Source of the DNA: an uncultured delta proteobacterium
Lineage (GTDB): Bacteria; Desulfobacterota; Binatia; UBA9968
NCBI GenBank assembly: GCA_963755715.1
Contig: CAVWLW010000054.1
Span: 96,001 to 160,000 of the forward strand
Reading direction: 5' to 3'
Length of the DNA stretch: 64,000 nt
Shown: one piece after another, positions 47,214-61,897 of the stretch
Numbering within the stretch: position 1 is the first letter of the stretch
Layout of the letters: each line of letters begins with the position of its first letter
The notes under the pieces: generated by a model
Database searches by the model: none
Told to the model about the DNA's origin: nothing
The model's input: the letters and a program-made list of their open reading frames with translations, nothing else
Program-made: the position numbers and the translations under genes

Positions 47214-47960
47214 TTAGTGAAGGAGTTTGTGGTACTCGTCGAGAGCGACGCCGGGTTTGCCGACAAACTTCTGCTTGCCATGATCGAGAACGCAGACGCG
47301 GTCACATAACTTAGCGACTTGGCCTGCATCATGGGATACAAAGACGATCGTTTTACCTTGTGCCTTGAAGCGGTTCATTGTGTCCTGGCATTTTCTCTGG
47401 AATTCTTCGTCTCCAACCGCTAATACTTCGTCGACGATGAGGATACTAGGATTCAGGTTAATGGCGAGTGCAAAGCCCAGACGAGCATGCATACCGGAGG
47501 AGTAATTCTTCATGGTGGTATCCATGAAATCATCTAATTCCGAAAACTCGACGATGGCAGGATAAAGGGCCTCGATTTCCTTACGGCAAAGACCATGGAT
47601 CGAAGCGCCTAAAAAGATGTTTTCTCTTCCTGTTAGCTCTGGATGAAAGCCCACTCCAAGCTCGATCATGGCGCCAACGCGACTATTTTTCGGCATGCGG
47701 ACTTCGCCCGACGAGGGCGGATAAATCCCCGCGATTATTCTTAGCAGGGTACTCTTGCCGGAGCCATTCCTGCCGATGACGCCAAACGACTCGCCGGCCT
47801 GAATAGCTAACGTAATGTCCCGCAACGCCCAGAATGTTTCGACGTCCTCCCGGTAGCGTTTGTGAAACAATCCGATGAATTTCGACTTCAATGAATTGGA
47901 TCGGTTATGGCGAATGGTGAACGCCTTGGACAGATTGACGATATCGATGCTGTCCGACAT
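47214..47960 (-). CDS. wzt: Polysaccharide ABC exporter ATP-binding subunit without C-terminal carbohydrate-binding domain
   Basis: GRNGSGKST, YSSGM and VDEVLAVGD; about 250 aa. Confidence 0.92.
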   Translation of the reverse strand: MSDSIDIVNLSKAFTIRHNRSNSLKSKFIGLFHKRYREDVETFWALRDITLAIQAGESFGVIGRNGSGKSTLLRIIAGIYPPSSGEVRMPKNSRVGAMIELGVGFHPELTGRENIFLGASIHGLCRKEIEALYPAIVEFSELDDFMDTTMKNYSSGMHARLGFALAINLNPSILIVDEVLAVGDEEFQRKCQDTMNRFKAQGKTIVFVSHDAGQVAKLCDRVCVLDHGKQKFVGKPGVALDEYHKLLH

Positions 47961-47964
47961 TCGC

Positions 47965-48732
47965 CTAGACCTCCTCGGCAAATCTAGCCTTATAGGAGCG
48001 GTGCACTTTGTAACCGATCAGCAACGAGAATGCAGTGAGCAACATCAGGATCGTGAATCGAGAAAAGTCAGGTACAGCTTGACGATAAAGAATATCTTGG
48101 TAACTGAGAATAAAAAAAGACTGAGGGTTTAGGTAAATAGCCGATTGTAATGACTCCGGAATGTTTTTAACATCGTAGATGATCGGTGTAAGCCAAAAGA
48201 GCAACAACAGCGCGATCTCAATAAAATGACGCACGTCGCGATAAAAGACGGTTGCCGTCGAAATCACAAAGCTCAAACCAAGTGTAAAGAGCATGTGCAA
48301 AATAAGCAGTGGAAAAAACCACAGAGTTACCAAAGACATTGGCACCTGGAAAAAGAGTACAGTCATCGGCACGAATACGATTAATGCAAAACCGAACTGG
48401 GCCAGGTTAAAAAGGACCGTCGCAACTGGAAAAACCTCCATAGGTACGGCGACCTTTCTAATCAGGTTGCCATTTTCGAGGATCGATCCTGTGGACATCA
48501 TCATCGACTGGGCAAAAAAATTCCAAGGCAAAATACCGATCAGCAAAAAATAAGAAAAATTTACTATCGTCGTCTTGAGAATATGGCTAAAAACAAAGCT
48601 ATAGACCAGAATAAGCAGCAAGGGATTCGCGAGAGACCACAGAAACCCCAGTACAGAGTCTCGGTATTTAAGCTTTAAGTCCTTTACAACAAGATTTCTG
48701 ATCAGTTCTCGATATGCAAGGAGAGTACGCAT
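47965..48732 (-). CDS. wzm: Polysaccharide ABC exporter permease
   Basis: DLKLKYRDSVLGFLWSLANPL, FYRDV, TPIIY and LNP. Confidence 0.92.
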   Translation of the reverse strand: MRTLLAYRELIRNLVVKDLKLKYRDSVLGFLWSLANPLLLILVYSFVFSHILKTTIVNFSYFLLIGILPWNFFAQSMMMSTGSILENGNLIRKVAVPMEVFPVATVLFNLAQFGFALIVFVPMTVLFFQVPMSLVTLWFFPLLILHMLFTLGLSFVISTATVFYRDVRHFIEIALLLLFWLTPIIYDVKNIPESLQSAIYLNPQSFFILSYQDILYRQAVPDFSRFTILMLLTAFSLLIGYKVHRSYKARFAEEV

Positions 48733-48979
48733 AGAGGAAATGTTTACCAGAGACTTTTATAAAAGTCACAACAGTAACGAAAATGGGGCTTCCGCCCGGC
48801 AATAAACTGTAGATGTAAGATTTAATCGCTTTTATGATCACTCAACAGTTGGACTGTCTGAAGGGAGAGAAAATACCAGCACAGTCGCAGACTAGCCACT
48901 AGCCAGATGATTATCTTTTTTCAGCATGCTTGGCAACCTGTCCTGCAGCTTCGGTGACTCCTTTACGCCAATCGGCACG

Positions 48980-49620
48980 TTAGACCCGGGCTTCATATTC
49001 AAAAGAGTTCAGAAATCCCTCAATCACTGATGTACGCGGCACACCGGAGTTGAGCGCTCCAACCCACGCAGAAAACCCGCCAGGGTCGGGGTCGCGACGC
49101 AGCAGGTCGAAGTACAACAGGGACACATCCAGTCGGTTCTGACTCACACTTAGGCTCTGAAACTCCGCCGAGTCCAGAAAGCTTAAAGCCACCTGCGCAC
49201 GCGTCATCTGTCCGCTATTCAACGCGCCCACCCAAGCGTTGAGTCCCCCCGTGTCCGCCGAGCGCAGCAATACGTTCGCGTACATCTTGTCGACAAACTC
49301 CGCGTCGGTCAGATTGCTGCCGAACTTCGCCTTAAATTCACCCGAGTCTAAAAAAAACTGCACGATCTGTTCCCGCGACATCCCGTCCAATAACACCTCC
49401 AACCAAGCCCGAAAGCCGGCATGGTCGGGATCCCGAGTTAGAATCCCCAGATAGGTTCGCGCAATGAATTTCCCTCTAAAATAGAATTCCTCGGAACCCA
49501 TAAACCCCTCAATCAGGCTCGACCTCGGAAGCCCGTTGTTCAGCGCATTGACCCAGGCCGAGGTTTCTACAGACGCAGGCTCTCGATCCAGAAAATCCAA
49601 ATACTGCTGACGAACGAAGA
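48980..49620. repeat. DUF4214-coding cassette, copy A (copies B ~51059-51697, C ~53455-54090)
   Basis: About 640 bp encoding FVRQQYLDFLDREP...YFDLLRRDPDPGGFSAWV, with long identical nucleotide runs in all three genes. Confidence 0.95.
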
Positions 49621-50873
49621 TCGCGTTCTCGGTCGCGGAGTCACTGGACAAAACGAATACCTTGCCCAATCCGAAAGAGAGGATGTACAACAAGCCGTCG
49701 GGTCCAACTTTGAGATCCGTGATGCCGCCAAAGCCAATCCCTAAAATAATTTCTTGAAGCTCTGCGCTGCTGTCGGCCACCCGATCCGCGAGCCCCATAG
49801 TCGTAAAGTCAAGTCCATCACGCGTCGAATTGACTTTGAAATGATAGAGGTTGCCGTTATTGATGTCGCCGGCTAAGACGTCGTTCTGGTAATCGGCGCC
49901 CAAAAGCGGCGATCTCATGAAGACGATCGCCGTCAACCCTACCGGATTGAACCATGAAAATTTGGGGTCGGCATAGTGCGAGCCGGGAAATTGAACCAGA
50001 TCGCCGGTTCCTTCCGCGTCACGGCCAACAGGGCCCATAATCCGCTCCCAGCCGCTATTAAATCCGGGCAGGACTAGATTGATCTCATCGTACCTATCCG
50101 GACCGTTTTCGGTATCCCAAAGTTCTGCCGTGAGCGGATCGAAAGCCAGGCCAAAGCTATTGCGGACTCCGTACGCATAGTACTTTGCCAGCTGGCCTCC
50201 CTGAGAAAAGAACGGATTATCCATCGGAATACTACCGTCGTCGTTGATGCGGAAGAATTACCCCGGTGTCGTCCGGGCCGGCGCCGGCGGGAAAGTTTTG
50301 TAGCTGGCCGTCGCGGTTGAGATCGCCGATGACAATATAGAGCTTGCCGTCGGGACCGAAGGTCATCGCGCCGCCATTGTGATTCGGTCCCGGTGTAACC
50401 GGCAAACTGATAATCAGCGTTGGGTTGATTAAATTGCTGCCGTTCCAGGTGTAACGAACGACACGGTTGTCTAACGGTGAACCGTTATCACTGGCACTGC
50501 TGCTTTGCGTGTAATAAAGGTAGACAAAAAAGTTTGAAGCAAAGTTGGGGTGAAGTGCGACGCCCAGCAGCCCACGTTCTGAAGCGGTGTCTACAGCAAC
50601 ATCCAGTACTTCCCCGGCTTGCAATACGCCGTTGATAACACGTCTAACCCGCCCATCTCCCTTTTGCAGAATAAGAAGATCGCCCGGTCCGATAAACACC
50701 ATGGCTGTAGGCTGACTCAATCCACCCACAACCTCGTTTACCCGAAGCGATGGATCCGTTAGCGTTTGTGCATTGGAGACAGATATAAGAAGAAAACTAA
50801 AGACCCAAAGAATTGCGAGCTCGCATAATTTGAGCTCAACCCGCCCTCTTGAGTGAAACGACAGGAGTGCCAT
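48980..50873 (-). CDS. Secreted PQQ-dependent glucose/sorbosone dehydrogenase-family protein with DUF4214 tail (frameshift near 50250)
   Basis: ERGLLGVALHPNF, NHNGG, FGPDGKLY, YGVRNSFG and DEIN; ORFs 50232..50873 and 48980..50224 join. Confidence 0.88.
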
Positions 50874-50883
50874 GGGATAGCAA

Positions 50884-50913
50884 TTTATAGAACGTCACGT
50901 GCGTAAGAATCAA
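50884..50913 (-). promoter_or_regulatory. sigma70-type promoter, copy 1
   Basis: TTGATT-N18-TATAAA; a homologous element lies at 53184-53213. Confidence 0.55.
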
Positions 50914-51058
50914 CGTCGGTACTTCAGCGTCTTGACTGCGACCCCACGACCCTCACCGCGGGGTGGCTTATAACTTATTAAGAGGGAACCACTCCACGTC
51001 GCTCCATAGTGGCCAGCAGCGGAATCCCTTTCATCGTCCCACTCTCGGCGCGGAGCGT

Positions 51059-52681
51059 TTAGAATCGAGCCTGATATTCACTAGACATCAGAAATCCGTC
51101 AATCACCGATGCGAACGGCACACCGGAGTTGAGCGCTCCAACCCACGCAGAAAACCCGCCAGGGTCGGGGTCGCGACGCAGCAGGTCGAAGTACAACAGG
51201 GACACATCCAATCGGTTCTGGCTCACACTTAGGCTCTGAAACTCCACCGAGTCCAGAAAGCTTAAAGCCACCTGCGCGCGCGTTATCTGTCCGCTATTCA
51301 ACGCGCCCACCCAAGCGTTGAGTCCCCCCGTGTCCGCCGAGCGCAGCAATACGTTCGTGTACATCTTGTCGACAAACTGCGAGTTCGTCAAATTGCTGCC
51401 GAAGTTCGACTTAAATTCACCCGAGTCTAAAAAAAACTGCACGATCTGTTCACGGGACAACCCGTCCAGCAATACCTCCAACCAAGCCCGAAAGCCGGCA
51501 TACTCAGCATCGCGAGTTAGAATCCCCAGATAGGTTCGAGCAATGAATTTGCCTTTAAAGTAGAATTCCCCGGAATCCATAAACGCCTCAACCAAGCTCG
51601 AGCTCGGAAGCCCGTTGTTCAGCGCATTGACCCAGGCCGAGGTTTCTGCAGATCCAGGCTCCCGATCCAGAAAATCCAAATACTGCTGACGAACAAAAAG
51701 ACTGTTATTAGAGAGTGGTAAGTTCTGCCACCCCAAATCCGCGAACACCTCTAACGCCAACCCTACGTCCTGGGTTGCACCTGTGTAAAATGGCTCCATG
51801 AGCTCATTTGGTGCAACGGCCGTATCAAAATGTGAAACAGAAGAGCCCGGTTGCTGAGGACTCGGCGCATACATTTGCACGTGGCCGCTTGCATCAACTC
51901 CAGCTGTCAAGTGACCGCTTGCCGCCAGTACATTCGAGCCGACCCAGTGGAGATTTCCGCTATTTCGGCTCGCACTGACCCTTTCCGCGTCGGTCATCTG
52001 AGGATACAGTTTACCGGTACTATGGTTTTCCAAATGGAGCGAAAAAACATCATTCAAACCTGCCAGTTTTGTCCCAGATGCAAGATCGACAAAAGATTGG
52101 AAACCGAGTCCGTGCCCAAGTTCGTGTAAAACGACGCTCACGAAGTCCAAGCTTCCCGCAGGCGGAGCGCCGTCGAGTCCGTAATACCAAACTAACGGGA
52201 ACGAACAGGTGGTGCCTATTGCGCTGTTGAAAGTTGCCCGAATATCGCTAGTCGCGGGATCGCTGTCTATGCCGGTCAGACTATTCGCTAGCGCCTGCGG
52301 GTACCATGTGTTTGGCAACGGTGCACCGGTAAAATCCCTGTGAACCGTCCTAGTGCCCGCCGCACCAAGAGTTGCAGATGTCGCTGAACACGTTAACGGA
52401 TCGAGATTCGCGTCGATTTTAATTTCAATAGGACTCGACAAAAGACTTGCCCAAATATTAGCTGCATATTGAAATGCAATGAGCCGTTGAGCGCCTAGTG
52501 TGGCTCCGCTATTACCGCCGGAAGTGGAAGCTGCATTTGGCGGATTTGGGTCGTTGAAACCTTCGTTCGGCCCATCAACATTGACGACCGTGATAACCGC
52601 TGAATGCGCAGTTTCCGCCGTTAGCAAATCTTGGACGTAAAAACTCGAGCTTATGAGCAAGCATACGAGAACTTGCCGCAT
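51059..52681 (-). CDS. Secreted zinc metallopeptidase with DUF4214 tail
   Basis: Signal peptide, EGFNDP, HELGHGLGF (HExxH), SVSHFD and LMEP. Confidence 0.85.
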   Translation of the reverse strand: MRQVLVCLLISSSFYVQDLLTAETAHSAVITVVNVDGPNEGFNDPNPPNAASTSGGNSGATLGAQRLIAFQYAANIWASLLSSPIEIKIDANLDPLTCSATSATLGAAGTRTVHRDFTGAPLPNTWYPQALANSLTGIDSDPATSDIRATFNSAIGTTCSFPLVWYYGLDGAPPAGSLDFVSVVLHELGHGLGFQSFVDLASGTKLAGLNDVFSLHLENHSTGKLYPQMTDAERVSASRNSGNLHWVGSNVLAASGHLTAGVDASGHVQMYAPSPQQPGSSVSHFDTAVAPNELMEPFYTGATQDVGLALEVFADLGWQNLPLSNNSLFVRQQYLDFLDREPGSAETSAWVNALNNGLPSSSLVEAFMDSGEFYFKGKFIARTYLGILTRDAEYAGFRAWLEVLLDGLSREQIVQFFLDSGEFKSNFGSNLTNSQFVDKMYTNVLLRSADTGGLNAWVGALNSGQITRAQVALSFLDSVEFQSLSVSQNRLDVSLLYFDLLRRDPDPGGFSAWVGALNSGVPFASVIDGFLMSSEYQARF

Positions 52682-52689
52682 TATTTGAG

Positions 52690-53115
52690 CTACTTTTTGC
52701 CGCTCGAATCTGCTGTCGGAAGGTCGTGTCCAATCCGCACTTTACCGTCTGCATCGATGGTGGCCATCAATGGAGTAAGAAAGCGCTCGTCGAGATGGAT
52801 CATAACTCCGCCGCCGGGAACCGGACTTACTGTTTCTCGTAAGGGCGGCATCGCCAGAGTGTTGATCTGCGGTTGTTGGGTTTGACCAGTTGGCGCAGCC
52901 ATGGGAGGAACCGTAATTTGACCAGTCTGAGGATCGATATGCACGATCGTGGCTTGTCCGTCTGCTGACGGTTCAGTTGCTTGGATAGTTTCAATCCTCA
53001 AATTCCTTGTCTGTGACTCGGCATCAACCGGTCTTCCAATCCAACCAATACAGCCACTTAGAGAGGGTGCAAATAGCACCAGTACAAATCCAATTTGGAT
53101 TGATGTTTGTCGCAT
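52690..53115 (-). CDS. Small exported/lipoprotein, post-PEP-CTERM-1-like domain
   Basis: LSGC lipobox; HIDPQTGQ, GGGVMIHLDERF and IDADGKV motifs. Confidence 0.6.
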   Translation of the reverse strand: MRQTSIQIGFVLVLFAPSLSGCIGWIGRPVDAESQTRNLRIETIQATEPSADGQATIVHIDPQTGQITVPPMAAPTGQTQQPQINTLAMPPLRETVSPVPGGGVMIHLDERFLTPLMATIDADGKVRIGHDLPTADSSGKK

Positions 53116-53447: not shown

Positions 53448-54641
53448 TTACCGTTTGGCTCGATATTCGCCAGACATCAGAAAAGCATCAATTGCCATTG
53501 TGAATGGCAGGCCTGAGTTGAGAGCCTCGACCCAAGCGGAAAACCCGCCAGGGTCGGGGTCGCGTTGCAGCAGATCGAAGTACAATAGGGACACATCCAG
53601 TCGGTTCTGGCTCACACTTAGGCTCTGAAACTCCAGCGAGTCCAGAAAGCTTAAAGCCACCTGCGCGCGCGTCATCTGCCCGCTATTCAAAACTCCCACC
53701 CAAGCGTTGAGTCCCCCCATGTCCGCCGAACGCAGCAATACGTTCGCGTACATCCTGTCGACAAACTGCGAGTTCGTTAAATTGCTGCCGAACTTCGCCT
53801 TAAATTCACCCGAGTCTAAAAAAAACTGCACGATCTGTTCCCGCGACATCCCGTCCAGCAATACCTCCAACCAAGCCCGAAAGCCGGCATAGTCAGCATC
53901 CCGAGTTAGAATCCCCAGATAGGTTCGTGCAATGAATTTCCCTTGAAAGTAGAATTCCTCGGAATCCATAAACGTCTCAATCAGGTTCGCTCTCGTAAGC
54001 CCGCCGTTCAGTGCATCGACCCAGCCCGAAAAGCCTCCAGCATCCGGCTCCCGATCGAGAAAATCCAAATACTGCTGACGAACAAAAAAACTATTTGTTG
54101 TGGCTGCACTTAATGCGAAATTCGCGGTGACACTCTTTTGCGAATTCATCGTCAAAGTGCATGAACCAGTCCCGGAGCACGCGCCGGACCAACCCGCAAA
54201 GACGGAACCGGCGGCAGCCGTCGCCGTTAACGTGACATTGGAGTTGCCGGCGAGCTGAACGTTACAATTCACGGTACAGTTAATTCCCGTGGGAGAACTT
54301 GTTATCTGGCCGGCGCCTGCGCCTGCTTTGACCAAACTAAGTGTCGCTTTCGTGAAACCACAGGTTACGCTCGTATAGGGTGAAGCTCCGGCGGAGCTGA
54401 ACGCGTTCACACGGTAGCAAAAGTTTGTCGCCTCCGGTAAATTTGAGTCTACGTAGCTCGTCACATTCTCCCCAACCGCGGCGATTTGGTTAAACGGGCC
54501 CGCGGCGGAAGTTGCTCGCTCGACGTTGAAGCCGGCTTCATTCGTTGAGTTGTCCTGCCATGTAACAGTCAACGAGCTCACCGCATCGGCGGTAGATCCC
54601 CATAGCAAGACAAATAACAGTTGAAGAAAAATACGATTCAT
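53448..54641 (-). CDS. Secreted fibronectin-III + InlB B-repeat-like + DUF4214 surface protein
   Basis: WQDNSTNEAGFNVER..YRVNA (FN3), VTLTATAAAGSVFAGWSGACSGTGSC and a DUF4214 tail. Confidence 0.88.
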   Translation of the reverse strand: MNRIFLQLLFVLLWGSTADAVSSLTVTWQDNSTNEAGFNVERATSAAGPFNQIAAVGENVTSYVDSNLPEATNFCYRVNAFSSAGASPYTSVTCGFTKATLSLVKAGAGAGQITSSPTGINCTVNCNVQLAGNSNVTLTATAAAGSVFAGWSGACSGTGSCTLTMNSQKSVTANFALSAATTNSFFVRQQYLDFLDREPDAGGFSGWVDALNGGLTRANLIETFMDSEEFYFQGKFIARTYLGILTRDADYAGFRAWLEVLLDGMSREQIVQFFLDSGEFKAKFGSNLTNSQFVDRMYANVLLRSADMGGLNAWVGVLNSGQMTRAQVALSFLDSLEFQSLSVSQNRLDVSLLYFDLLQRDPDPGGFSAWVEALNSGLPFTMAIDAFLMSGEYRAKR

Positions 54642-54919
54642 TAAAGTTCCCGCCCTCTGACCCGGCGGTTCATTTCTATCCAAGCTCTAGAGAGTCATTC
54701 AAAATACCTCGATGGCAACAAGAAATTCGAATTCCTATATTTGAATCGAATCGGCGCACACGAATGTTAAAAACAAACTGGGCTATTCGCCCATATAGCG
54801 ACATAATCTAGAAAGGCATGCCTCGAAATGAGGCCAGAGAAAAACGCTAATGCAATCCAAAAAATCAGTGGCAGACGCTGCTAAAACCGTGACTCTGCCC
54901 GAGAAAAGAAGCCTTTGGC

Positions 54920-54952
54920 ATAGGATCTCCAACGCTCCCATTGAGACCCTAT
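54920..54952 (-). terminator. Leader hairpin downstream of the riboswitch candidate (possible expression platform)
   Basis: ATAGGGTCTCAATG-GGAG-CGTTGGAGATCCTAT stem, conserved in both repeat copies; no immediate U-tract. Confidence 0.3.
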
Positions 54953-54968
54953 ACCGCATCCAGATTAT

Positions 54969-55055
54969 AACCTCTCTGGAACCGGCTATCAGGCTGTCGG
55001 CCTGACCCGTCGCTTTCGTCCAGCCTCATGACTAGTTTGCTTACCGAGAGAGGTT
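54969..55055 (-). ncRNA. Cyclic-dinucleotide riboswitch candidate (GEMM-I / c-di-GMP-I-like), copy 1
   Basis: AACCTCTCT-CGGTAA-GCAAA-CTAGTC-ATGA-GGCTGG-ACGAAAGC-GA-CGGGTC-AGGC(CGACA)GCCT-GATAGCCG-GTTCC-AGAGAGGTT follows the GEMM-I P1/P2/P3 layout, with deviations. Confidence 0.6.
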
Positions 55056-55078
55056 GAGTACTAAGTGCCGTCGTTTTA

Positions 55079-55095
55079 AGCATCACATATGCCAA
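55079..55095 (-). promoter_or_regulatory. sigma54 -24/-12 promoter
   Basis: TTGGCATATGTGATGCT with exact GG-N10-GC spacing; the second copy (55651-55667) has GC changed to AC at -12. Confidence 0.7.
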
Positions 55096-55209
55096 AGCAA
55101 TAGAAGCGATTTTTTGATCCAGCATGGTATTACATTAGCATGCAGTGACATTATTTCGACTTGTATTTACACAATTGATCCCATCCGGAATAGACATTTT
55201 TGTGGAGCA

Positions 55210-55233
55210 ACCTGTCCCAAATTCCGGACAGGT
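55210..55233. promoter_or_regulatory. Candidate enhancer (bEBP) binding palindrome
   Basis: Perfect ACCTGTCC-N8-GGACAGGT about 120-140 bp upstream of the sigma54 site; copy 2 at 55779-55803 has a 1-nt insertion. Confidence 0.6.
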
Positions 55234-55542
55234 GTCGTGCCTAAAGAATGGTTTTTCCTTCGCCCGTCAGAATCGAACAGAGTTTTAAGCTCATCAAAAA
55301 AACGAAGAACGGTCGAATCGGCGCACACGAGTGTTAAAGACAAACTGAGCCTATTGGCCCATATCACGCGACATAATCTAGCAAGGCATGCCTCGAAATG
55401 AGGCGAGAGAAAAACGCTAATGCAATCCAAAAAATCAGTGGCAGATCAGAGCTGCTAAAACCGTGACTCTGCCCGAGAAAAGATACCTTTGGCATAGGAT
55501 CTCCAACGCTCCCGTTGAGACCCTATACCGCATCCACATTAC

Positions 55543-55628
55543 AACCTCTCTGGAGGTATCAGGTTGTCGGCCTGATCGGTCGCTTTGCGTCCAGCCTCAT
55601 GGCTAGTTTGCTTTTACCAAGAGAGGTT
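55543..55628 (-). ncRNA. GEMM-I-like riboswitch candidate, copy 2 (P3 3' strand eroded)
   Basis: GGTAAAAGCAAA-CTAGCC-ATGA-GGCTGG-ACGCAAAGC core, closed by AACCTCTC/GAGAGGTT. Confidence 0.5.
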
Positions 55629-56180
55629 GAGTTCTAAGTGCGTCGTTTTAAGTATCACATATGCCAAAGCAATAGAAGCGATTTTTTGATCCAGCATGGT
55701 ATTAAATTAGCATGCAGTGACTTATTTCGACTTGTATTTATACAATTGATCCCATCCTGAATAGAATTTTTGTAAGCAACCTGTCCCAAATTCTGGAACA
55801 GGTGTCGTGCCTAAAGAATGGTTTTTCCTTCGCACGTCAGAATCGAAACAGGGTTATGCCCGCGCTTAATCATCGCAAAACGGCTGTTATCTTGTCCGTG
55901 ACAAACCACGGGATTTGATTTTTGGTAAATCGCACCAAAGACCAGTTTCTTCTTCGAGTTCGCGCAAAGCTGCACTCTCCCCTCCTTAACAAAATCGCGT
56001 GGAATCCCCAGGAGTAGCCTTGGATGGCGTGCCGATATGCCAAAATTAAACCGATTTTTTTATCTCAGAGGGGAAGCCCACCGCGACACCTGTCACAAGA
56101 TTGAACCTGACTTACTTGGGAGCCACCACAAGGCAATCTGAAACAGAGACTGGTCTTTCGATTTAAAAACGAGGAACCGA

Positions 56181-57752
56181 CTATTTTCGCAAGCAAGCGA
56201 CGTTACGCAGAGGAATCAATAACCAGCGATACCGAAGGGCCGAGCCGGTAGCGTACTTCCTCTCAAGCCGATGGGACACCATTTCCTTCATTTCCCGTGC
56301 TGTCTGAACTCCAAACTTCAGAGCGCTCATTTCCAGATATCCGGGATTATTAAAATAAACCTGAAACGCATGATCTCGGAAGCGAAGCACTTCCACCCCC
56401 GGCAGGTGTTTCGTTGGTAGAGGTAAAGTATCAACAGCATGTTGGGAGTAGCCGGACCATTTTTCCGGCAGCGGCCAGCCCTCTTTTAGCGCAAGACTAT
56501 AAAGGTGCGAACCCGGATAGGCCATGGCAGAATAGAAGTTCGCAAACTCGCAGTTCAAATCCAGGGCGAGATCCAGCGTTGCCTGCATGCTTTCCAGATT
56601 GTCCTCAGGCAATCCGAAAATATAATTGGCGATAACGTTGATTCCGGCGGCCCGAACCTTCTCAAGGGTTCGGAAAATCTCTTCTTGTCCAAACCCCTTG
56701 TCGACATCATCGCGCACGCGCTCACTGGCGGCCTCGATACCGAAGGCAAGCCAATTAAAGCCCGCGCGTTTGAGCTTGTCCAACATTTCTTCTTTCACCG
56801 TGTCCACTCGGGCGTAAGCCCAGATATTTAAGTCATAGCCGCGGTCAATGATGGCGTCGCAGATGCCGAGCACATGGCGCGGATTCAAGACAAACATCTC
56901 GTCGGCGATCTTGATGTTTCGCACGCCATACTCTTCGACCAGTTTATCTATTTGCCCAATGACAGCCTGTGGACTCCAGAATCGATAGCTGTTTACGCTT
57001 TCCTTCCAGCCCGCTACTTTTTCGCCACTTTTAAAGGGCGCTTGAATGCAGCAAAAACTGCAGTGATAGGGGCACCCAAAGGTTGTATAGAGCGACGCGT
57101 AAGGTTGGCGCTCAAGATCGCCGAAACAGTGCCAGTTATGCGCGCGATATTTTTTCATCGGCAAAAGATCCCACGCCATCTCCGGCATTTCATGATCCAG
57201 ATCCTTAACCAGTGGTGCCGCCGGGCTCGATCGAACCGCGCCGTCTTCTGTGTAGCAAAGGCCCCGGACTTTAGAATAATCAGCTCGACCAGATTTAAGA
57301 GCTTCCAAAAGCTCAAGAACAGTATATGGGCCCTCGCCGGAGCAGACAAAATCGGCAGCCTCTTCTTGCAACGTGCGCTCCGGCAGCGCTGCGACATGCC
57401 CGCCGACCATAAGCACCTTTCGCTCAGGGTTCATTTGCTTGAGCGCCGCGCAAATCGCACCTGCGGCGGTCATGTTTTGTGTTGAAGCTGACGGCTGATG
57501 GCCGTAAACGACGACTGCAGCCAGAAGCGGATTCATCTCAGCCACTCGCGTCGCTGTTGCTTCCGGGCTCAAGTCATCACCTTCCGCATCCAGCACAGCA
57601 ACGGAAAACCCGCGCCGGCGCACAAAGGTAGCCATCAAACTCGCCCAAACGGGAGGTTCAATGGCCGAGAGCGACGAACCCAACGACTGATAAATCTGCG
57701 TTCGGCTTCCGGGATGGATCAGCACCAAGTCTAGGTCGCGCTTAGAGTCCAT
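56181..57752 (-). CDS. Cobalamin-dependent radical SAM enzyme
   Basis: N-terminal B12-binding domain (PPVW, GGHV, GEG), GCPYHCSFC, ADEMF, YARVD and FGLPED. Confidence 0.9.
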   Translation of the reverse strand: MDSKRDLDLVLIHPGSRTQIYQSLGSSLSAIEPPVWASLMATFVRRRGFSVAVLDAEGDDLSPEATATRVAEMNPLLAAVVVYGHQPSASTQNMTAAGAICAALKQMNPERKVLMVGGHVAALPERTLQEEAADFVCSGEGPYTVLELLEALKSGRADYSKVRGLCYTEDGAVRSSPAAPLVKDLDHEMPEMAWDLLPMKKYRAHNWHCFGDLERQPYASLYTTFGCPYHCSFCCIQAPFKSGEKVAGWKESVNSYRFWSPQAVIGQIDKLVEEYGVRNIKIADEMFVLNPRHVLGICDAIIDRGYDLNIWAYARVDTVKEEMLDKLKRAGFNWLAFGIEAASERVRDDVDKGFGQEEIFRTLEKVRAAGINVIANYIFGLPEDNLESMQATLDLALDLNCEFANFYSAMAYPGSHLYSLALKEGWPLPEKWSGYSQHAVDTLPLPTKHLPGVEVLRFRDHAFQVYFNNPGYLEMSALKFGVQTAREMKEMVSHRLERKYATGSALRYRWLLIPLRNVACLRK

Positions 57753-58960: not shown

Positions 58961-60007
58961 TTAAAAAGGACCCCTAAACTGAATCTCTTGCAATTCCAAC
59001 TTTTCTTCCGGGAGCCAACCCTTCTCGTCGCCCGTGACAAGATCATAAACAGCCGCGGCAATCGTCCTCGAGTTGGGATAATAGAGATTCTCCAATGGTG
59101 GGGTCGGTGGACAAGTCACCGGTGCAAACCCCATTCGTCGAACGAGCACCGGCCTGATTCCTTGGAGCCGTTCGACGACGAGTGCGATGATTTCCGCACT
59201 GGCTCCGCAAGTAACCCAGTCATTATCGACGACGCATAATCGGCCAGTTTTTCGTACTGATTCGACTATCGTGTCAATATCCAGCGGACTTAACCAGATC
59301 GGATCAATCACCTCGGCTTGAATGTCGGCGGACTCCAGATAACTGCGCGCGCGCAGGCATTCAAGCTGCATGTGAGAAATCCCGACCAGCGTTACATCCG
59401 ATCCCGGCGCAGTGATGCGCGCTTTGCCGGGAGCAACGGTGTAGAGAGACTCCGGCACGGGGCCTTTTTGAAAATGTAAAATACGGTGTTCGACGTACAT
59501 CACGGGGTCGTTGTCGCGAATAGCTTGAACGAGACACCCTTTGGCATCGTACGGCGTCGTCGGCGCAACTACTTTTAATCCCGGCACATGCATAAAAAAA
59601 GAGTAAAGCCCCTGGGAATGCTGCGCGCCCTGGCCCCAACTTTTGCCGATCATCGAGCGAACCACCATCGGCACCTGCACCTGACCGCCGTACATATAGC
59701 GACTCTTGGCCGCGATGTTGATCAACTGGTTCATCGCCAGCATGAGAAAATCCATACGGATATGCACGTGGACCGGACGCAATCCGGCCAGAGCCGCGCC
59801 GATGGCCACACCCGTCATCGCATCCTCGGATAGCGGCGTACCGAAGACGCGCTCCGACCCGTATTTTTCCAACAGTCCGCGCGTCGTACCTTGAATCGCC
59901 TTGGGATCGTCCACGTCGAGACCAAATACGATGACCGACGGATCTCGGGCCATTTCCTGGTCGGTCGCTTCCCGGACCGCTTCGACGTAGGAGAGCTCGC
60001 GCTTCAT
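58961..60007 (-). CDS. TPP-dependent dehydrogenase E1 beta-like subunit
   Basis: TPLSED, GLRPVHVH, GQGAQHSQ and PGLKVVAP. Confidence 0.9.
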   Translation of the reverse strand: MKRELSYVEAVREATDQEMARDPSVIVFGLDVDDPKAIQGTTRGLLEKYGSERVFGTPLSEDAMTGVAIGAALAGLRPVHVHIRMDFLMLAMNQLINIAAKSRYMYGGQVQVPMVVRSMIGKSWGQGAQHSQGLYSFFMHVPGLKVVAPTTPYDAKGCLVQAIRDNDPVMYVEHRILHFQKGPVPESLYTVAPGKARITAPGSDVTLVGISHMQLECLRARSYLESADIQAEVIDPIWLSPLDIDTIVESVRKTGRLCVVDNDWVTCGASAEIIALVVERLQGIRPVLVRRMGFAPVTCPPTPPLENLYYPNSRTIAAAVYDLVTGDEKGWLPEEKLELQEIQFRGPF

Positions 60008-60013
60008 ATACTC

Positions 60014-60954
60014 TCAGGCTTCAAAAACATCCGTATAGAGCTCGGCGGCTTGCGGAAACGGGCTGCGCTCGGCGAAAGCAAACGCGTCGCGTATCTCGGT
60101 TTCAACGGCCGCCTCAATTTCGCGCCGCCGTTGCGGGTCAAGGCGATCACCGAGCTGCTTAATCGGATCGGCTTTGATCCACGGTTCGGCCTCTTCGCGG
60201 CTGCGGTATCCGAGTTGGAAATCGTCGTTAGGGTCCGACGTGCTCCTTCAATCGGTAGGTTAGGCACTCAAAAAAGAATGGCCCGGGCTGCCCCGAACGA
60301 AGCCTGCCCAACCGCTTCATTCACTCTTTCATAGATGCGCACCACGTCGTTGTCCGGGATCTGTTCCGCAGGCATGCCATGGATGCGCGCTCGTTCGCAT
60401 ATATTATTGAGCTTTTGTCGCTGCAGTTGGTGGGTATGAATGGCGTATAAATTGTTCTCGCAAACAAAAATAATAGGAAGAGACTTGAGTGCAGCAAAGT
60501 TCAGACTTTCATGAAAGACGCCCTCATCGACGGCGCCGTCGCCAAAAACACTCACCACAACGGAATCTTTGCGTTGCAATTTTAGCGCATAAGCAAAGCC
60601 GACCGCCTGAGGGATGGTCGTGCCTACAACTGCGGATGCGCCCATCACTCGAGCCGCCACGTCGATCAAATGCATCGATCCGCCCTTGCCCTTGGCGCAA
60701 CCATCGAGCTTGCCGTAAAGCTCGGCGATCATTTTTTGGAGGTCACCGCCCTTGGCCAAATACAAAGCGTGACTTCTGTAAGTTCCAAAAACGACATCGT
60801 CGCGACCAAGCGCCTCGCAGACACCGACCGACACAGCCTCCTGCCCTATGGACAGATGAACGGGACTCTTGATCTTGTCCGTCGGATAAACCGCGGCGAT
60901 TTCCTCTTCGACCCGCCGGATCCGATACAGAGCTCTATAAAATCGCTCGATCAT
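60014..60954 (-). CDS. TPP-dependent dehydrogenase E1 alpha-like subunit (frameshifts near 60308 and 60230)
   Basis: HLSIGQEA, GGSMH and GDGA..ENN; shifted frames give ECLTYRLKEHVGP and SPFPQAAELYTDVF. Confidence 0.88.
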
Positions 60955-61897
60955 CCGCTTTCCCTTTAGCATCGCCGCAGTGTTTTAGAAACCAATCATA
61001 CGTCAGCATCAGTGCTGTGCGAATAGAGGTACGCGGTTTCCAACCCATCTGCGCCAAACAGCTGGAATCCAGAAGCTTTGCCGGCATGCCGTCCGGTTTG
61101 CTTTGATCGAAGGTCAATTCGCCGGTGTAGCCTACGACGTCGCGGATCATCTCGGCGATCTCTTTAATGGACCAATCGCATCCCACACCAATGTTGATCG
61201 GCTCTTCGCCGTCGTAAACATCCATCAGAAATAAACATGCACGAGCGAGATCTTGAGAGAAGATAAATTCGCGCCGCGGCAGCCCGCTACCCCAAATTTC
61301 CACATGGGCATCGCCGCGGGTCTTTGCCTCGTGCATTCGGCGCATCAGAGCTCCGATCACGTGCGAGTCCTCAGGACTGAAATCGTCGCCCGGGCCAAAG
61401 ACGTTGGCAGGAATCGCGGTAATCATCTGCTTACCGAATTGCTGGCGGTAGGCTCGGCACAGAAAAAGGCCGGCGAGTTTGGCGACCGCGTAGGGTTCAT
61501 TCGTCGGCTCCAATTTACCGGTAGTCAGATACTCGACTTTCATCGGTTGCTCGGAAAACTTCGGGTAAATGCAGGAGCTGGCAAGATAGAGCAACTTTTG
61601 AACACCGTGGCGGTGAGCGCTGTCAAGCACGTGACAATTCACCAACAAATTGTCACGCATTAAATCCGCCGGATAGCGCCGATTGGCCGCGATGCCACCC
61701 GTCCTCCCTCCGATGAGAAACACATAACCGGGGAGGTTACGAGCAAAATACTCATCGACTTCGGCAGCATCGGCAATTTTTGGGCTGTCTTGCTCACCGA
61801 AAAGGTACTCGTAACCCGCTCGTTTGAGCTCGGCAAAAATTTCTCGTCCTACGAGGCCATCGTTGTCAGCCACGTAGATTCTTGCGCTCTTATCCAT
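60935..61897 (-). CDS. fcl: GDP-L-fucose synthase / ColC-like epimerase-reductase
   Basis: GGIAAN, SSCIYPK, LEPTNEPYAVAK, SHVI and DQSKPDG. Confidence 0.88.
   Translation of the reverse strand: MDKSARIYVADNDGLVGREIFAELKRAGYEYLFGEQDSPKIADAAEVDEYFARNLPGYVFLIGGRTGGIAANRRYPADLMRDNLLVNCHVLDSAHRHGVQKLLYLASSCIYPKFSEQPMKVEYLTTGKLEPTNEPYAVAKLAGLFLCRAYRQQFGKQMITAIPANVFGPGDDFSPEDSHVIGALMRRMHEAKTRGDAHVEIWGSGLPRREFIFSQDLARACLFLMDVYDGEEPINIGVGCDWSIKEIAEMIRDVVGYTGELTFDQSKPDGMPAKLLDSSCLAQMGWKPRTSIRTALMLTYDWFLKHCGDAKGKADDRAIL

What the first reader, a model, noticed from the sequence alone, without database searches (positions are those of the whole stretch)
54746..55852. Tandemly duplicated enhancer + sigma54 promoter + variant cyclic-dinucleotide riboswitch ahead of a surface-protein/glycan-export block
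Seen: each ~540-bp unit holds, in transcription order, an ACCTGTCC-N8-GGACAGGT palindrome, a GG-N10-GC box, an ~87-nt element with GEMM-I architecture (GCAAA-stem-ACGCAAAGC-CGGGTC...GATAGCCG, long closing stem) and a further hairpin. Both copies have A just before GCAAA and an ATGA loop rather than GNRA. Established: G at that position (Vc2 G20) favours c-di-GMP, while A is associated with 3',3'-cGAMP sensing in deltaproteobacterial GEMM-Ib riboswitches. Inference: dual control by sigma54 enhancer activation and a possibly cGAMP-type or altered-ligand riboswitch over DUF4214 surface proteins, and perhaps the downstream wzm/wzt glycan locus. Each copy is missing a different conserved part.
Basis: partly seen in the sequence, partly recalled or inferred. 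Interest (0 to 1): 0.78.

Follow-up and report, generated by a model that had tools for sequence, protein, structure and literature searches.

The report
Decayed c-di-GMP riboswitch behind sigma-54 promoter
A soil bacterium carries two tandem copies of a control region in which a sigma-54 promoter is followed by the worn-down remains of a c-di-GMP-sensing RNA switch, so this is most likely a switch caught in decay and not a new kind of sensor.

Summary
Two head-to-tail units lie on the minus strand (proximal 54746-55312, distal 55313-55855). Each holds a palindrome, a -24/-12 box, a GEMM-I-like element and further hairpins, upstream of a secreted Flg_new_2/DUF4214 gene and a wzm/wzt glycan block.

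The RNA element descends from c-di-GMP-I riboswitches but is no longer a member. It scores 26.9 and 21.9 bits against a cut-off of 35, whereas its closest intact relatives score 63-80.

Three metagenome orthologues carry a single unit, so the duplication is specific to this lineage. All five copies share A20, an AUGA loop and lost G residues, and each has a further lesion of its own. No base pair shows a compensatory change, against nine in seven intact relatives of similar divergence. A same-genus orthologue lacks the aptamer altogether.

The sigma-54 box and the palindrome core are conserved in every gene-proximal unit. Only the distal copy has lesions in the palindrome, the -12 GC and the aptamer.

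Best reading: a working sigma-54/enhancer promoter with a relic riboswitch leader, plus a decaying duplicate. A cGAMP or altered-ligand switch is not excluded (about 0.15).

In this family (record titles: Candidatus Binatia), 27 of 31 distinct GEMM-I aptamers follow a sigma-54 box. This scan had already noted that cassette in other genomes.

The parts
54746..55312 (-). Proximal (gene-side) repeat unit: junction, palindrome, sigma-54 box, aptamer relic and leader hairpins
55313..55855 (-). Distal repeat unit, 91% identical to the proximal one, with a lesion in the palindrome, in the -12 element and in the aptamer
55210..55233 (.). Palindrome ACCTGTCC-N8-GGACAGGT, a candidate enhancer (bEBP) site about 130 nt upstream of the -24 GG. 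The core TGTCC-N8-GGACA is kept in L085, L086, L087 and the G049 orthologue.
55079..55094 (-). Sigma-54 -24/-12 box TGGCATATGTGATGCT (GG 55092-55093, GC 55080-55081). By inference the TSS lies near 55068.
   Evidence: In the 20-column block around the box, 19 columns are invariant in the 4 gene-proximal units.
54969..55055 (-). Proximal GEMM-I-derived aptamer relic including a 9-bp P1. It has A20 (55041), an AUGA loop, no C46, GGAC in place of GGGAC, and AGCG in place of AGCC.
54907..54961 (-). Hairpin 1 (13-bp core stem with a 6-bp extension), followed by UUUUCUC (54901-54907), which can also pair with the P1 3' strand GAGAGG. This is the best conserved RNA structure of the leader.
   Evidence: one compensatory pair, in L087
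54859..54900 (-). T1-like hairpin GGCAGA...UCUGCC followed by a run of six U. It has a large loop, is disrupted in L085 by a 7-nt deletion, and was not called by the terminator scan.
54820..54834 (-). Small hairpin GCCUC-AUUUC-GAGGC, with all five stem pairs unchanged in the 5 sequences
54769..54793 (-). Terminator-like hairpin UGGGCGAAUAGCCCA followed by GUUUGUUUUU. The stem is not kept in L085 or L087.
55779..55803 (.). Distal palindrome with a 1-nt insertion (ACCTGTTCC-N8-GGACAGGT)
55651..55666 (-). Distal -24/-12-like box TGGCATATGTGATACT, with the -12 GC changed to AC
55543..55628 (-). Distal aptamer relic. It keeps G21-C46 but lacks the 3' strand of P2 (GAUAGCCGGUU reduced to GAUACCU).
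55856..56180 (-). 325-nt spacer between the upstream radical-SAM gene and the distal unit. It is present in L087, absent in L085 and L086, and unique in the genome.
53448..54641 (-). First downstream gene: a signal-peptide-like N-terminus (by eye), a Flg_new_2 domain and four DUF4214 repeats (397 aa from the ATG at 54641)
47214..53115 (-). Further genes on the same strand: a 141-aa ORF with no Pfam match, a DUF4214 protein, a GSDH+DUF4214 gene split in two, then an ABC-2 permease and an ABC ATPase (wzm/wzt-like)

Best explanation
This is the regulatory region of a secreted Flg_new_2/DUF4214 protein gene in a soil bacterium whose nearest relatives are labelled Candidatus Binatia. It has been tandemly duplicated in this lineage only.

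Each unit is a module that is standard in this bacterial family: an upstream activator site, a sigma-54 -24/-12 promoter, and about 40 nt further on a c-di-GMP-I (GEMM-I) riboswitch. At this locus the aptamer has decayed. The common ancestor of the five known copies had already changed G20 to A and GUGA to AUGA, and had lost G residues in the junction and in P2. Each copy has since picked up its own further deletions.

The gene-proximal unit keeps an intact palindrome and GG/GC box, so it is probably the working, enhancer-dependent promoter. Its leader starts with a riboswitch relic that probably no longer senses a dinucleotide. The conserved hairpins after the relic may still affect attenuation or RNA stability. 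The distal unit has a lesion in the palindrome, the -12 GC and the aptamer, and is a decaying duplicate.

Shown: the sequence anatomy, the homology, the conservation pattern and the failure of the family tests.

Inferred: sigma-54 use, binding of a bEBP at the palindrome, the TSS, and loss of ligand binding.
For: (1) Ancestry. The aptamer part matches intact GEMM-I aptamers of related genomes at 79-85%. Those score 59-75 bits on RF03167 and 63-80 on RF01051. Alignment A1 shows shared flanks, including the CCUCUC/GAGAGG outer stem.

(2) Failure of membership. There are 0 hits at gathering thresholds in the window. The two copies score 26.9 and 21.9 bits against a cut-off of 35. Of the orthologous copies, L086 scores 21.4 bits, and L085 and L087 give no hit at E<=1.

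(3) Three metagenome contigs with the orthologous gene (96, 95 and 78% aa identity) each hold one unit.

(4) Lesions. All 5 copies share A20, ACU, GGAC and AGCG, and the 4 that keep the loop have AUGA. Private lesions differ between copies:
- L087 lacks 7 nt of the P1b hairpin and has G21U.
- L086 has GC-AAC.
- L085 has A43C.
- The distal copy lacks the P2 3' strand.
- The proximal copy lacks C46.

(5) Base pairing. In the locus group 87.9% of cells pair, 0 of 30 pairs show a change on both sides, and 421 of 500 shuffles reach the observed pairing. The pocket-closing helix is 50% paired. In seven intact relatives of similar divergence (84% against 86% mean column identity), 98.1% of cells pair, 9 pairs are compensatory and 0 of 500 shuffles reach the observed value.

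(6) Conservation. The aptamer has 65% invariant columns, against 75% in the rest of the unit (Fisher p 0.049). For proximal against distal, p is 0.016. The 20-column sigma-54 block has 19 invariant columns.

(7) The same-genus orthologue in G049 keeps the palindrome core and the promoter region but has no aptamer or hairpins.

(8) The same genome keeps an intact GEMM-I (74.8 bits) behind a consensus sigma-54 box, in front of a paralogue of this gene.

(9) Sigma-54 boxes precede 27 of 31 distinct family aptamers, against 26 of 959 control windows. The genome has rpoN and 33 matches to the Sigma54_activat (bEBP ATPase) family.
Against: - A20, the AAA after position 46, GCAAA and ACG are kept in all or nearly all copies.
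- P1 and P1b still pair in 96% and 100% of cells.
- The MFE fold of the proximal copy keeps the P1, P1b and P2 hairpins.
- The leader just downstream is well conserved: 83% invariant columns and one compensatory pair. That would fit a still-used expression platform.
- One GGDEF protein carries the Hypr serine, so cGAMP signalling cannot be excluded.
- Only five sequences are available, two of them paralogues, and the conservation statistics are weak (p about 0.02-0.05).
- The assembly has frameshifted genes, rpoN included, so single-base indels in the two window copies are uncertain.
- The sigma-54 motif alone is not significant in the window.
- No TSS, binding or expression data exist.
Confidence: 0.65

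Rival explanations
1. The proximal element is a working variant riboswitch. With A at position 20 it would sense 3',3'-cGAMP, or both cGAMP and c-di-GMP, or another ligand. Together with sigma-54 it would form a two-input gate on the surface-protein genes.
For: - A20 is present in 5 of 5 copies.
- G20A makes Vc2 bispecific, and natural cGAMP riboswitches carry A there (passages of PMC6140456).
- One PAS-GAF-GGDEF protein (C56:105514-107007) has Ser at the GacA Ser348 position together with a GGDEF motif. This is the Hypr signature described in passages of PMC6456294.
- An intact A20 GEMM-I (79.6 bits) precedes a paralogue in G089.
- P1, P1b and the downstream hairpin are conserved.
Against: - Scores are 21-27 bits or no hit at all.
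- The G21-C46 pair forms in 1 of 4 scorable cells.
- L087 lacks half of P1b, L086 lacks one A of the AAA bulge, and the proximal copy lacks C46.
- No pair shows a compensatory change.
- The G049 orthologue lacks the element.
- The candidate cyclase is not a Rec-GGDEF like GacA (recalled), and its activity is untested.
Confidence: 0.15
2. Each unit is a sigma-54-dependent small-RNA gene. It would make a riboswitch-derived RNA of 200-300 nt ending at the T1 or T2 hairpin, and this RNA would act in trans or as a dinucleotide sponge. The duplication would then give two sRNA copies.
For: - Each unit has its own promoter-like box and U-tailed hairpins.
- The post-aptamer hairpins are the best conserved RNA parts.
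- This scan has noted an orphan GEMM-I small RNA elsewhere (e1-2733978, unchecked).
Against: - The distal box has lost its -12 GC.
- T1 is disrupted in L085, and the T2 stem is not kept in L085 or L087.
- Orthologues have one unit placed directly before the gene.
- In X17, contigs from an RNA library run from the aptamer's 3' side to the start codon across T1 and T2. This is only a weak hint, because DNA may be present in such libraries.
Confidence: 0.08
3. The lesions, or the duplication itself, are assembly artefacts of an indel-prone assembly, and the real sequence holds one intact riboswitch.
For: - rpoN, a GSDH gene and an E1 gene are split by frameshifts in this assembly.
- Several aptamer lesions are single-base deletions in G or A runs.
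Against: - Three metagenome contigs with different record names (L085, L086, L087) share A20, GGAC, AGCG and CCGG-UU, and two of them also share AUGA. They score no better.
- Run X1 holds contigs over all 30 bins. At 55013 about 15 of 40 depth units carry the reference form.
- The two units differ at many substituted positions.
Confidence: 0.05

Closest known systems
c-di-GMP-I (GEMM-I) riboswitch, Rfam RF01051; type example Vc2 of Vibrio cholerae
   Same: Clear common descent. It shares the GCAAA...ACG(C)AAAGC core, a P1b hairpin, a P2 hairpin and an outer P1. It sits in a 5' leader before a secreted-protein gene.
   Different: - It scores below the gathering cut-off (26.9 and 21.9 against 35).
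- G20 is A.
- The G21-C46 pair is mostly unformed.
- The loop is AUGA, where the closest intact relatives have GUGA.
- G residues are lost in the junction and in P2.
- There is no covariation.
GEMM-Ib 3',3'-cGAMP riboswitches of Geobacter (e.g. Gs1761)
   Same: A at the position equivalent to Vc2 G20 (passages of PMC6140456). The lineage is related to the Deltaproteobacteria (record titles). The genome holds a candidate Hypr-type GGDEF.
   Different: Known GEMM-Ib RNAs keep the full GEMM-I scaffold, as does the intact A20 example in G089 at 79.6 bits. The elements here do not. No ligand data exist.
Variant classes c-di-GMP-I-GGC and c-di-GMP-I-UAU (Rfam RF03167, RF03168)
   Same: The distal copy and L086 hit these models best. 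The intact relatives pass RF03167.
   Different: The scores of 20.9 and 21.4 bits are far below their cut-offs of 65.9 and 59. Variant classes keep a conserved scaffold with changed pocket bases (recalled). Here the scaffold itself varies.
Sigma-54 promoter with an upstream bEBP site (e.g. glnAp2; the Qrr sRNA genes of Vibrio, recalled)
   Same: GG-N10-GC box, a palindrome about 130 nt upstream, and rpoN and many bEBP genes in the genome.
   Different: The activator is unknown and no bEBP gene lies on this contig. The palindrome core is not enriched in the genome (7 matches against 8.4 expected). The function is untested.
Sigma-54 promoter plus c-di-GMP riboswitch cassettes noted earlier by this scan in other genomes (e1-2779079, e1-1224382)
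   Same: The same promoter-then-aptamer order. In this family 27 of 31 distinct aptamers have it.
   Different: Those notes describe intact riboswitches before small cysteine-rich proteins. Here the aptamer is degenerate and the cargo is a secreted DUF4214 protein.

Membership tests
c-di-GMP-I riboswitch (RF01051) | Covariance-model score at or above the gathering cut-off (35 bits) | tested here: not met
   The proximal copy scores 26.9 bits and the distal 21.9. L086 scores 21.4 on RF03167. L085 and L087 give no hit at E<=1. The window has 0 hits at gathering thresholds.
c-di-GMP-I riboswitch (RF01051) | Three-helix secondary structure (P1, P1b, P2) supported by covariation | tested here: not met
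   87.9% of cells pair, 0 of 30 pairs are compensatory, and 421 of 500 shuffles do as well. Intact relatives give 98.1%, 9 pairs and 0 of 500. The proximal copy alone can still fold P1, P1b and P2.
c-di-GMP-I riboswitch (RF01051) | Junction pairs G21-C46 and C22-G45 under the ligand pocket | tested here: not met
   This helix is 50% paired. G-C at 21-46 forms in 1 of 4 cells with letters.
c-di-GMP-I riboswitch (RF01051) | G at position 20 contacting G-alpha (passages of PMC6140456) | tested here: not met
   A in 5 of 5 copies. G in all 7 intact members of the nearest subclade.
c-di-GMP-I riboswitch (RF01051) | GNRA tetraloop on P1b docking into P2 (type-1 GEMM-I; recalled) | tested here: not met
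   AUGA in the 4 copies that keep the loop, and the loop is deleted in L087. The 7 intact relatives have GUGA.
c-di-GMP-I riboswitch (RF01051) | Binding of c-di-GMP | not testable with these tools
   Needs in-line probing or ITC.
GEMM-Ib cGAMP riboswitch | A at position 20 | tested here: met
GEMM-Ib cGAMP riboswitch | An otherwise intact GEMM-I scaffold | tested here: not met
   Compare the intact A20 aptamer of G089 at 79.6 bits.
GEMM-Ib cGAMP riboswitch | A cGAMP synthase in the genome (a Hypr GGDEF with Ser at the GacA 348 position and a GGDE[F/Y] motif; passages of PMC6456294) | tested here: inconclusive
   1 of 9 GGDEF matches (C56) has Ser with GGDEF. Its paralogues have Ala with GGDEF and Pro with GGEEF. 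The architecture by eye looks like PAS-GAF-GGDEF (no domain scan was run), not Rec-GGDEF. CD-NTases were not searched.
Sigma-54-dependent promoter | -24 GG and -12 GC ten bases apart within TGGCAY-N6-TGCW | tested here: met
   Met in the proximal unit at 55079-55094 and kept in L085, L086 and L087. The distal copy has AC. The motif alone is expected 0.62 times in the window.
Sigma-54-dependent promoter | rpoN and bEBPs encoded in the genome | tested here: met
   One rpoN, which reads as two overlapping frames in this assembly, and 33 Sigma54_activat matches.
Sigma-54-dependent promoter | Upstream activator site bound by a bEBP | not testable with these tools
   A palindrome lies about 130 nt upstream, and its core is conserved in orthologues. 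Binding is untested and no bEBP gene lies on this contig.

The most novel reading that the evidence does not exclude
The five-member group is not junk. It would be a new A20/AUGA derivative of GEMM-I with a reduced junction that still binds a dinucleotide, for example 3',3'-cGAMP made by the PAS-GAF-GGDEF enzyme that carries the Hypr serine. With the sigma-54 enhancer it would form a two-signal gate on a surface-protein and glycan-export block in Candidatus Binatia.
Probability: 0.1. Interest if true: 0.7.

Novelty: new variant of a known kind. Interest (0 to 1): 0.36.

Why it matters
Decaying riboswitches with their evolutionary intermediates still visible are, as far as I recall, rarely described. 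Here one locus offers four states side by side:
- intact relatives;
- five differently damaged copies;
- an orthologue with the element deleted;
- an intact riboswitch on a paralogue in the same genome.

This is a natural series for asking which aptamer parts fail first and what keeps a leader once sensing is lost.

The work also shows that in this soil lineage GEMM-I riboswitches are nearly always transcribed from sigma-54 promoters. That implies a combined enhancer and second-messenger control of secreted proteins, which could be tested.

For annotation, the case warns that GEMM-like leaders with A20 should not be called cGAMP riboswitches on that base alone.

Tried and rejected
- Shared variant class: sub-threshold RF01051 hits in same-genus genomes (L045-L051) are unrelated in sequence to this element, so they do not form a shared variant class.
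- Metagenome DNA scan: a scan for the exact core GCAAACTAGYCATGAGGCTGGACG gave 0 matches. The orthologues were found through the protein instead.
- Palindrome as a regulon motif: TGTCC-N8-GGACA occurs 7 times in the genome against 8.4 expected.
- Mobile or repeated element: the unit and the spacer are unique in the genome.
- Hidden ORF: no stop-free stretch is shared in place and frame among the 5 leaders.
- Relic gene start: I tested whether hairpin 1 is the start of the riboswitch's former gene (an 18-codon ORF beginning MPK). Its similarity to the platforms of intact relatives is not significant; the best alignment is reached by 43 of 500 shuffles. The ATG is lost in L085 and the frame is shifted in L086.
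- GGDEF in G089, which holds the intact A20 aptamer: no match at E<=1e-20.
- GGDEF in G049: the 3 of 5 domains that my pattern parsed have D, E and Q at the Hypr position.
- Literature: searches for sigma-54 together with GEMM or a c-di-GMP riboswitch returned no paper on the association among the listed titles. The two apparent hits were the words 'Gemmatimonas' and 'Gemma'. No supplementary files were read.
- Sequencing runs: no run held more than 0.27 of the sampled words. Parts without cover in X5, X17 and X18 say nothing.
Full report
OBSERVATION

All genes around the finding lie on the minus strand, so the region is read from 55855 down to 54641. The repeat finder reports 11 co-linear direct-repeat blocks, spaced 567-574 nt start to start, each 90-100% identical. 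A search of the whole 7.4-Mb assembly with the 567-nt proximal unit finds only that unit and the distal copy. The distal copy aligns to positions 29-567 at 91%. A lower-stringency BLAST in a script also finds no other copy of the unit or of the 325-nt spacer upstream.

The proximal unit runs from 54746 to 55312 and the distal from 55313 to 55855. In transcription order each unit holds:
- a palindrome (proximal ACCTGTCC-N8-GGACAGGT at 55210-55233; the distal copy has a T insertion);
- a -24/-12 box (proximal TGGCATATGTGATGCT at 55079-55094; distal TGGCATATGTGATACT);
- a GEMM-I-like element with a long outer stem;
- several hairpins.

There is an A before GCAAA and an AUGA loop in both copies. 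ACGCAAAGC occurs only in the distal copy, and CGGGTC...GATAGCCGG only in the proximal one.

IS IT A GEMM-I RIBOSWITCH?

At Rfam's gathering thresholds the 64-kb window has no hit. With permissive filters on 54600-56200, the proximal element scores 26.9 bits against RF01051 (cut-off 35, E 0.0095). The distal element scores 20.9 against RF03168, and 21.9 against RF01051 in the genome search.

The ancestry is nevertheless clear. A DNA search of the 90 genomes of the same family finds the aptamer part at 79-85% identity (E 1e-10 to 1e-11) in G018 and in the unpublished G019. There the elements are bona fide riboswitches, scoring 70-75 bits on RF03167 and 68-80 on RF01051.

An alignment with seven intact members of this subclade (G018 twice, G004, G052, G010, G020, G047; none unpublished) shows shared flanks down to the CCUCUC/GAGAGG outer stem. 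G052 and G047 belong to the window's own genus.

The window's genome itself holds two intact GEMM-I elements, at 74.8 and 58.6 bits.

ORTHOLOGUES

The N-terminal 192 residues of the downstream protein retrieve three metagenome contigs with the orthologous gene: L085 at 96% aa identity, L087 at 95% and L086 at 78%. BLAST of their upstream DNA against the window shows one unit in each. L085 and L086 also lack the 325-nt spacer, and L087 has it. The tandem duplication is therefore specific to this lineage.

In the five-way alignment, and in A1, all five copies share changes relative to the intact subclade:
- G20 to A;
- ACC to ACU;
- the loop GUGA to AUGA (in the four copies that keep the loop);
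- GGGAC to GGAC or GGCC;
- AGCC to AGCG;
- CCGGGUU shortened.

Each copy also has private damage:
- L087 lacks 7 nt of the P1b hairpin and has U at G21.
- L086 has lost one A of GCAAAC.
- L085 has A43C.
- Position 46 is A in L085, L086 and L087, C in the distal copy, and absent in the proximal copy.
- The distal copy lacks the 3' strand of P2.

Rfam gives 21.4 bits for L086 and no hit at E<=1 for L085 or L087.

The same-genus genome G049 has the orthologous gene (79% aa identity), a homologous palindrome core (TTGTCC-N8-GGACAA) and the promoter region. It runs from there almost directly into the last part of the leader, with no aptamer and no hairpins.

TESTS OF CONSTRAINT

With the GEMM-I consensus pairing written onto the five-sequence alignment, 87.9% of cells pair and 0 of 30 pairs have a change on both sides. 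421 of 500 shuffles do as well. The two pocket-closing pairs are 50% formed and P2 is 81% formed.

The seven intact relatives have about the same divergence (mean column identity 84% against 86%). They give 98.1% pairing, 9 compensatory pairs and 0 of 500 shuffles.

Across the four gene-proximal units, the aptamer has 65% invariant columns. The 20-column sigma-54 block has 95%, the linker and hairpin 1 have 83%, and the rest of the unit has 75% overall (Fisher p 0.049). Between the two window copies the aptamer holds 15 of the 46 variable columns (p 0.016). These statistics are weak, but they point the same way.

By MFE the proximal copy still forms P1, P1b and P2. The other copies depart further from the consensus fold.

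PROMOTER AND ENHANCER

The GG and GC dinucleotides are kept in all four gene-proximal units. Only one spacer base varies. The distal duplicate alone has GC changed to AC and an insertion in the palindrome. The duplicate therefore carries a lesion in each of the three elements.

The genome encodes rpoN and has 33 matches to the Sigma54_activat (bEBP ATPase) family, none on this contig. The motif alone is not significant in the window: 1 match against 0.62 expected. The palindrome core is not a genome-wide motif: 7 matches against 8.4 expected.

The context is stronger evidence. Five intact aptamers that I read by eye all follow consensus sigma-54 boxes (own C44, G018 twice, G052, G047). In a scripted count, 27 of 31 distinct family aptamers have GG/GC plus at least 5 of 7 further consensus bases within 155 nt upstream, against 26 of 959 control windows. 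Two of the 27 come from unpublished genomes (L026 of G019 and L037 of G041); without them the count is 25 of 29. Related genomes are not independent, but the spacers differ.

At this locus the -12 GC lies 39 nt before A20. That is within the 25-62 nt range of one group of intact modules.

CARGO

The first gene (53448-54641) has a signal-peptide-like N-terminus (by eye), a Flg_new_2 domain and four DUF4214 repeats. It is followed by:
- a 141-aa ORF with no Pfam match;
- a DUF4214 protein;
- a GSDH+DUF4214 gene split in two;
- an ABC-2 permease and an ABC ATPase;
- a 1353-aa protein with several glycosyltransferase domains.

Homologues of the first gene's N-terminal part are a main cargo of GEMM-I in this family. 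Comparing by eye the coordinates listed, I count 34 places where an over-threshold aptamer lies within about 250 nt upstream of a homologue. Two of these are in unpublished genomes, and one is the window genome's own paralogue at C44:106402. This count was not checked by script.

THE cGAMP QUESTION

According to passages of PMC6140456:
- cGAMP riboswitches have A at position 20.
- The Vc2 G20A mutant binds both ligands.

A20 is present in all five copies. Of the 9 GGDEF matches in the genome, one (C56:105514-107007, apparently PAS-GAF-GGDEF by eye; no domain scan was run) has Ser nine residues after the conserved Asn, together with a GGDEF motif. Passages of PMC6456294 give exactly this as the Hypr signature. 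Its paralogues have Ala with GGDEF and Pro with GGEEF.

One intact family aptamer has A20 and precedes a paralogue of this gene (L029 of G089, 79.6 bits). cGAMP signalling in this family is therefore possible, and the ancestor of the locus group may have been an A20 type. The present elements, however, do not keep the scaffold that known GEMM-Ib RNAs keep.

THE REST OF THE LEADER

RNAalifold on the five post-aptamer leaders predicts the following:
- A conserved hairpin at 54907-54961, with one G-C to C-G compensatory change in L087.
- UUUUCUC directly after it, which could pair with the P1 3' strand GAGAGG. Both partners are invariant, so this pairing is untested.
- A T1-like hairpin with a run of six U, which is disrupted in L085.
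- A small invariant hairpin.

The consensus scan calls one terminator-like site per unit (54779-54793 in the proximal unit). In total it finds 3 sites against 1.9 expected.

Contigs from two RNA libraries cover parts of the leader:
- X17 covers 54657-54948, and its loose ends reach on one side to the start codon and on the other into the aptamer's 3' side.
- X18 covers 54664-54817 and 55579-55748.

These are contigs of relatives and may derive from DNA, so they are only a weak hint of read-through transcription.

DATA QUALITY

In this assembly rpoN reads as two overlapping frames. The GSDH gene and an E1 dehydrogenase gene are also frameshifted. Single-base indels in the window copies are therefore uncertain.

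The shared lesions are seen in three metagenome contigs with different record names.

In run X1 the reference form at 55013 takes about 15 of 40 depth units. The rest carry an extra base that gives ACGAAAAGC, as in the orthologues.

No run held more than 0.27 of the sampled words.

TAXON

The nearest RpoN relatives (81-95% identity) carry record titles such as Candidatus Binatia bacterium or uncultured delta proteobacterium MAG.

MECHANISM AND VERDICT

Most likely (about 0.65), the proximal unit is the working enhancer-dependent sigma-54 promoter of the DUF4214 operon. Its leader begins with a riboswitch relic that no longer senses a ligand, and the distal unit is a decaying duplicate.

The rivals are:
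- a functional A20 variant riboswitch (0.15);
- sigma-54-driven riboswitch-derived small RNAs (0.08);
- an assembly artefact (0.05).

PRIOR KNOWLEDGE

The sigma-54-plus-GEMM-I cassette was already noted by this scan on other DNA (e1-2779079 and e1-1224382; both are AI notes). Here it is confirmed for another lineage. I found no paper on the association in the searches named under Tried and rejected.

Noticed in passing
Family genomes; loci L001, L009, L014, L016-L044 (aptamer at about position 1500 of each locus): Sigma-54 -24/-12 boxes (TGGCAY-N5-TTGCW) precede 27 of 31 distinct GEMM-I aptamers within 155 nt, against 26 of 959 control windows. The GC-to-G20 distances fall into two groups, 25-72 nt and 105-138 nt. 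Two of the 27 are from unpublished genomes (G019, G041).
   Followed up: yes
Coordinates listed (e.g. G000:C44:106235-106965): Secreted proteins with the same N-terminal domain as the window gene lie directly downstream of over-threshold GEMM-I aptamers at 34 places by my eye count. This protein family is a main riboswitch cargo in the lineage.
   Followed up: partly
G000:C56:105514-107007 (outside the window): A GGDEF protein (by eye PAS-GAF-GGDEF) with Ser at the GacA Ser348 (PleD Asp344) position and a GGDEF motif, which is the Hypr signature. Its paralogues at C14 and C60 have Ala and Pro there. Its C-terminus diverges from the paralogues after AAKQAG, possibly through a frameshift.
   Followed up: partly
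L029 (G089:C181:1702-1792, minus strand): An intact GEMM-I aptamer (79.6 bits) with A at position 20. It is a candidate cGAMP-type riboswitch before a paralogue of the window gene. No GGDEF match at E<=1e-20 was found in that genome (95% complete).
   Followed up: partly
L054 (G000:C34:24210-27686), ORFs 2333-2962 and 1483-2484, minus strand: rpoN reads as two overlapping frames (209 aa and 333 aa). This is either a frameshift or an assembly indel. With 33 Sigma54_activat matches in the genome, an assembly error seems more likely.
   Followed up: partly
window 48980-50873 and 60004-60972: A GSDH+DUF4214 gene is split by a one-base frameshift at CTTCCGC. The E1 dehydrogenase gene changes frame twice within about 100 nt.
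   Followed up: partly
window 41349-42987: Two overlapping plus-strand ORFs (256 aa and 304 aa) of membrane-protein character look like one gene split by a frameshift.
   Followed up: no
window 56084-56102 and 55937-56158: The spacer upstream of the distal unit holds a third copy of the half-site GACAGGTGTCG and a 19-nt inverted repeat with arms 184 nt apart. The spacer is present in L087 and absent in L085 and L086.
   Followed up: partly
L011 / L056 (G049:C63): The G049 orthologue has TTGACAT where the window has TGGCAT, so the -24 GG is GA. This creates a TTGACA hexamer. The gene itself is split into 220-aa and 173-aa parts.
   Followed up: no
L009 positions 880-1310: Upstream of the G018 riboswitch lie several copies of a GC-rich repeat, CCGCAGAGGCGCGGAGAACGCGGAGGAAAA.
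   Followed up: no
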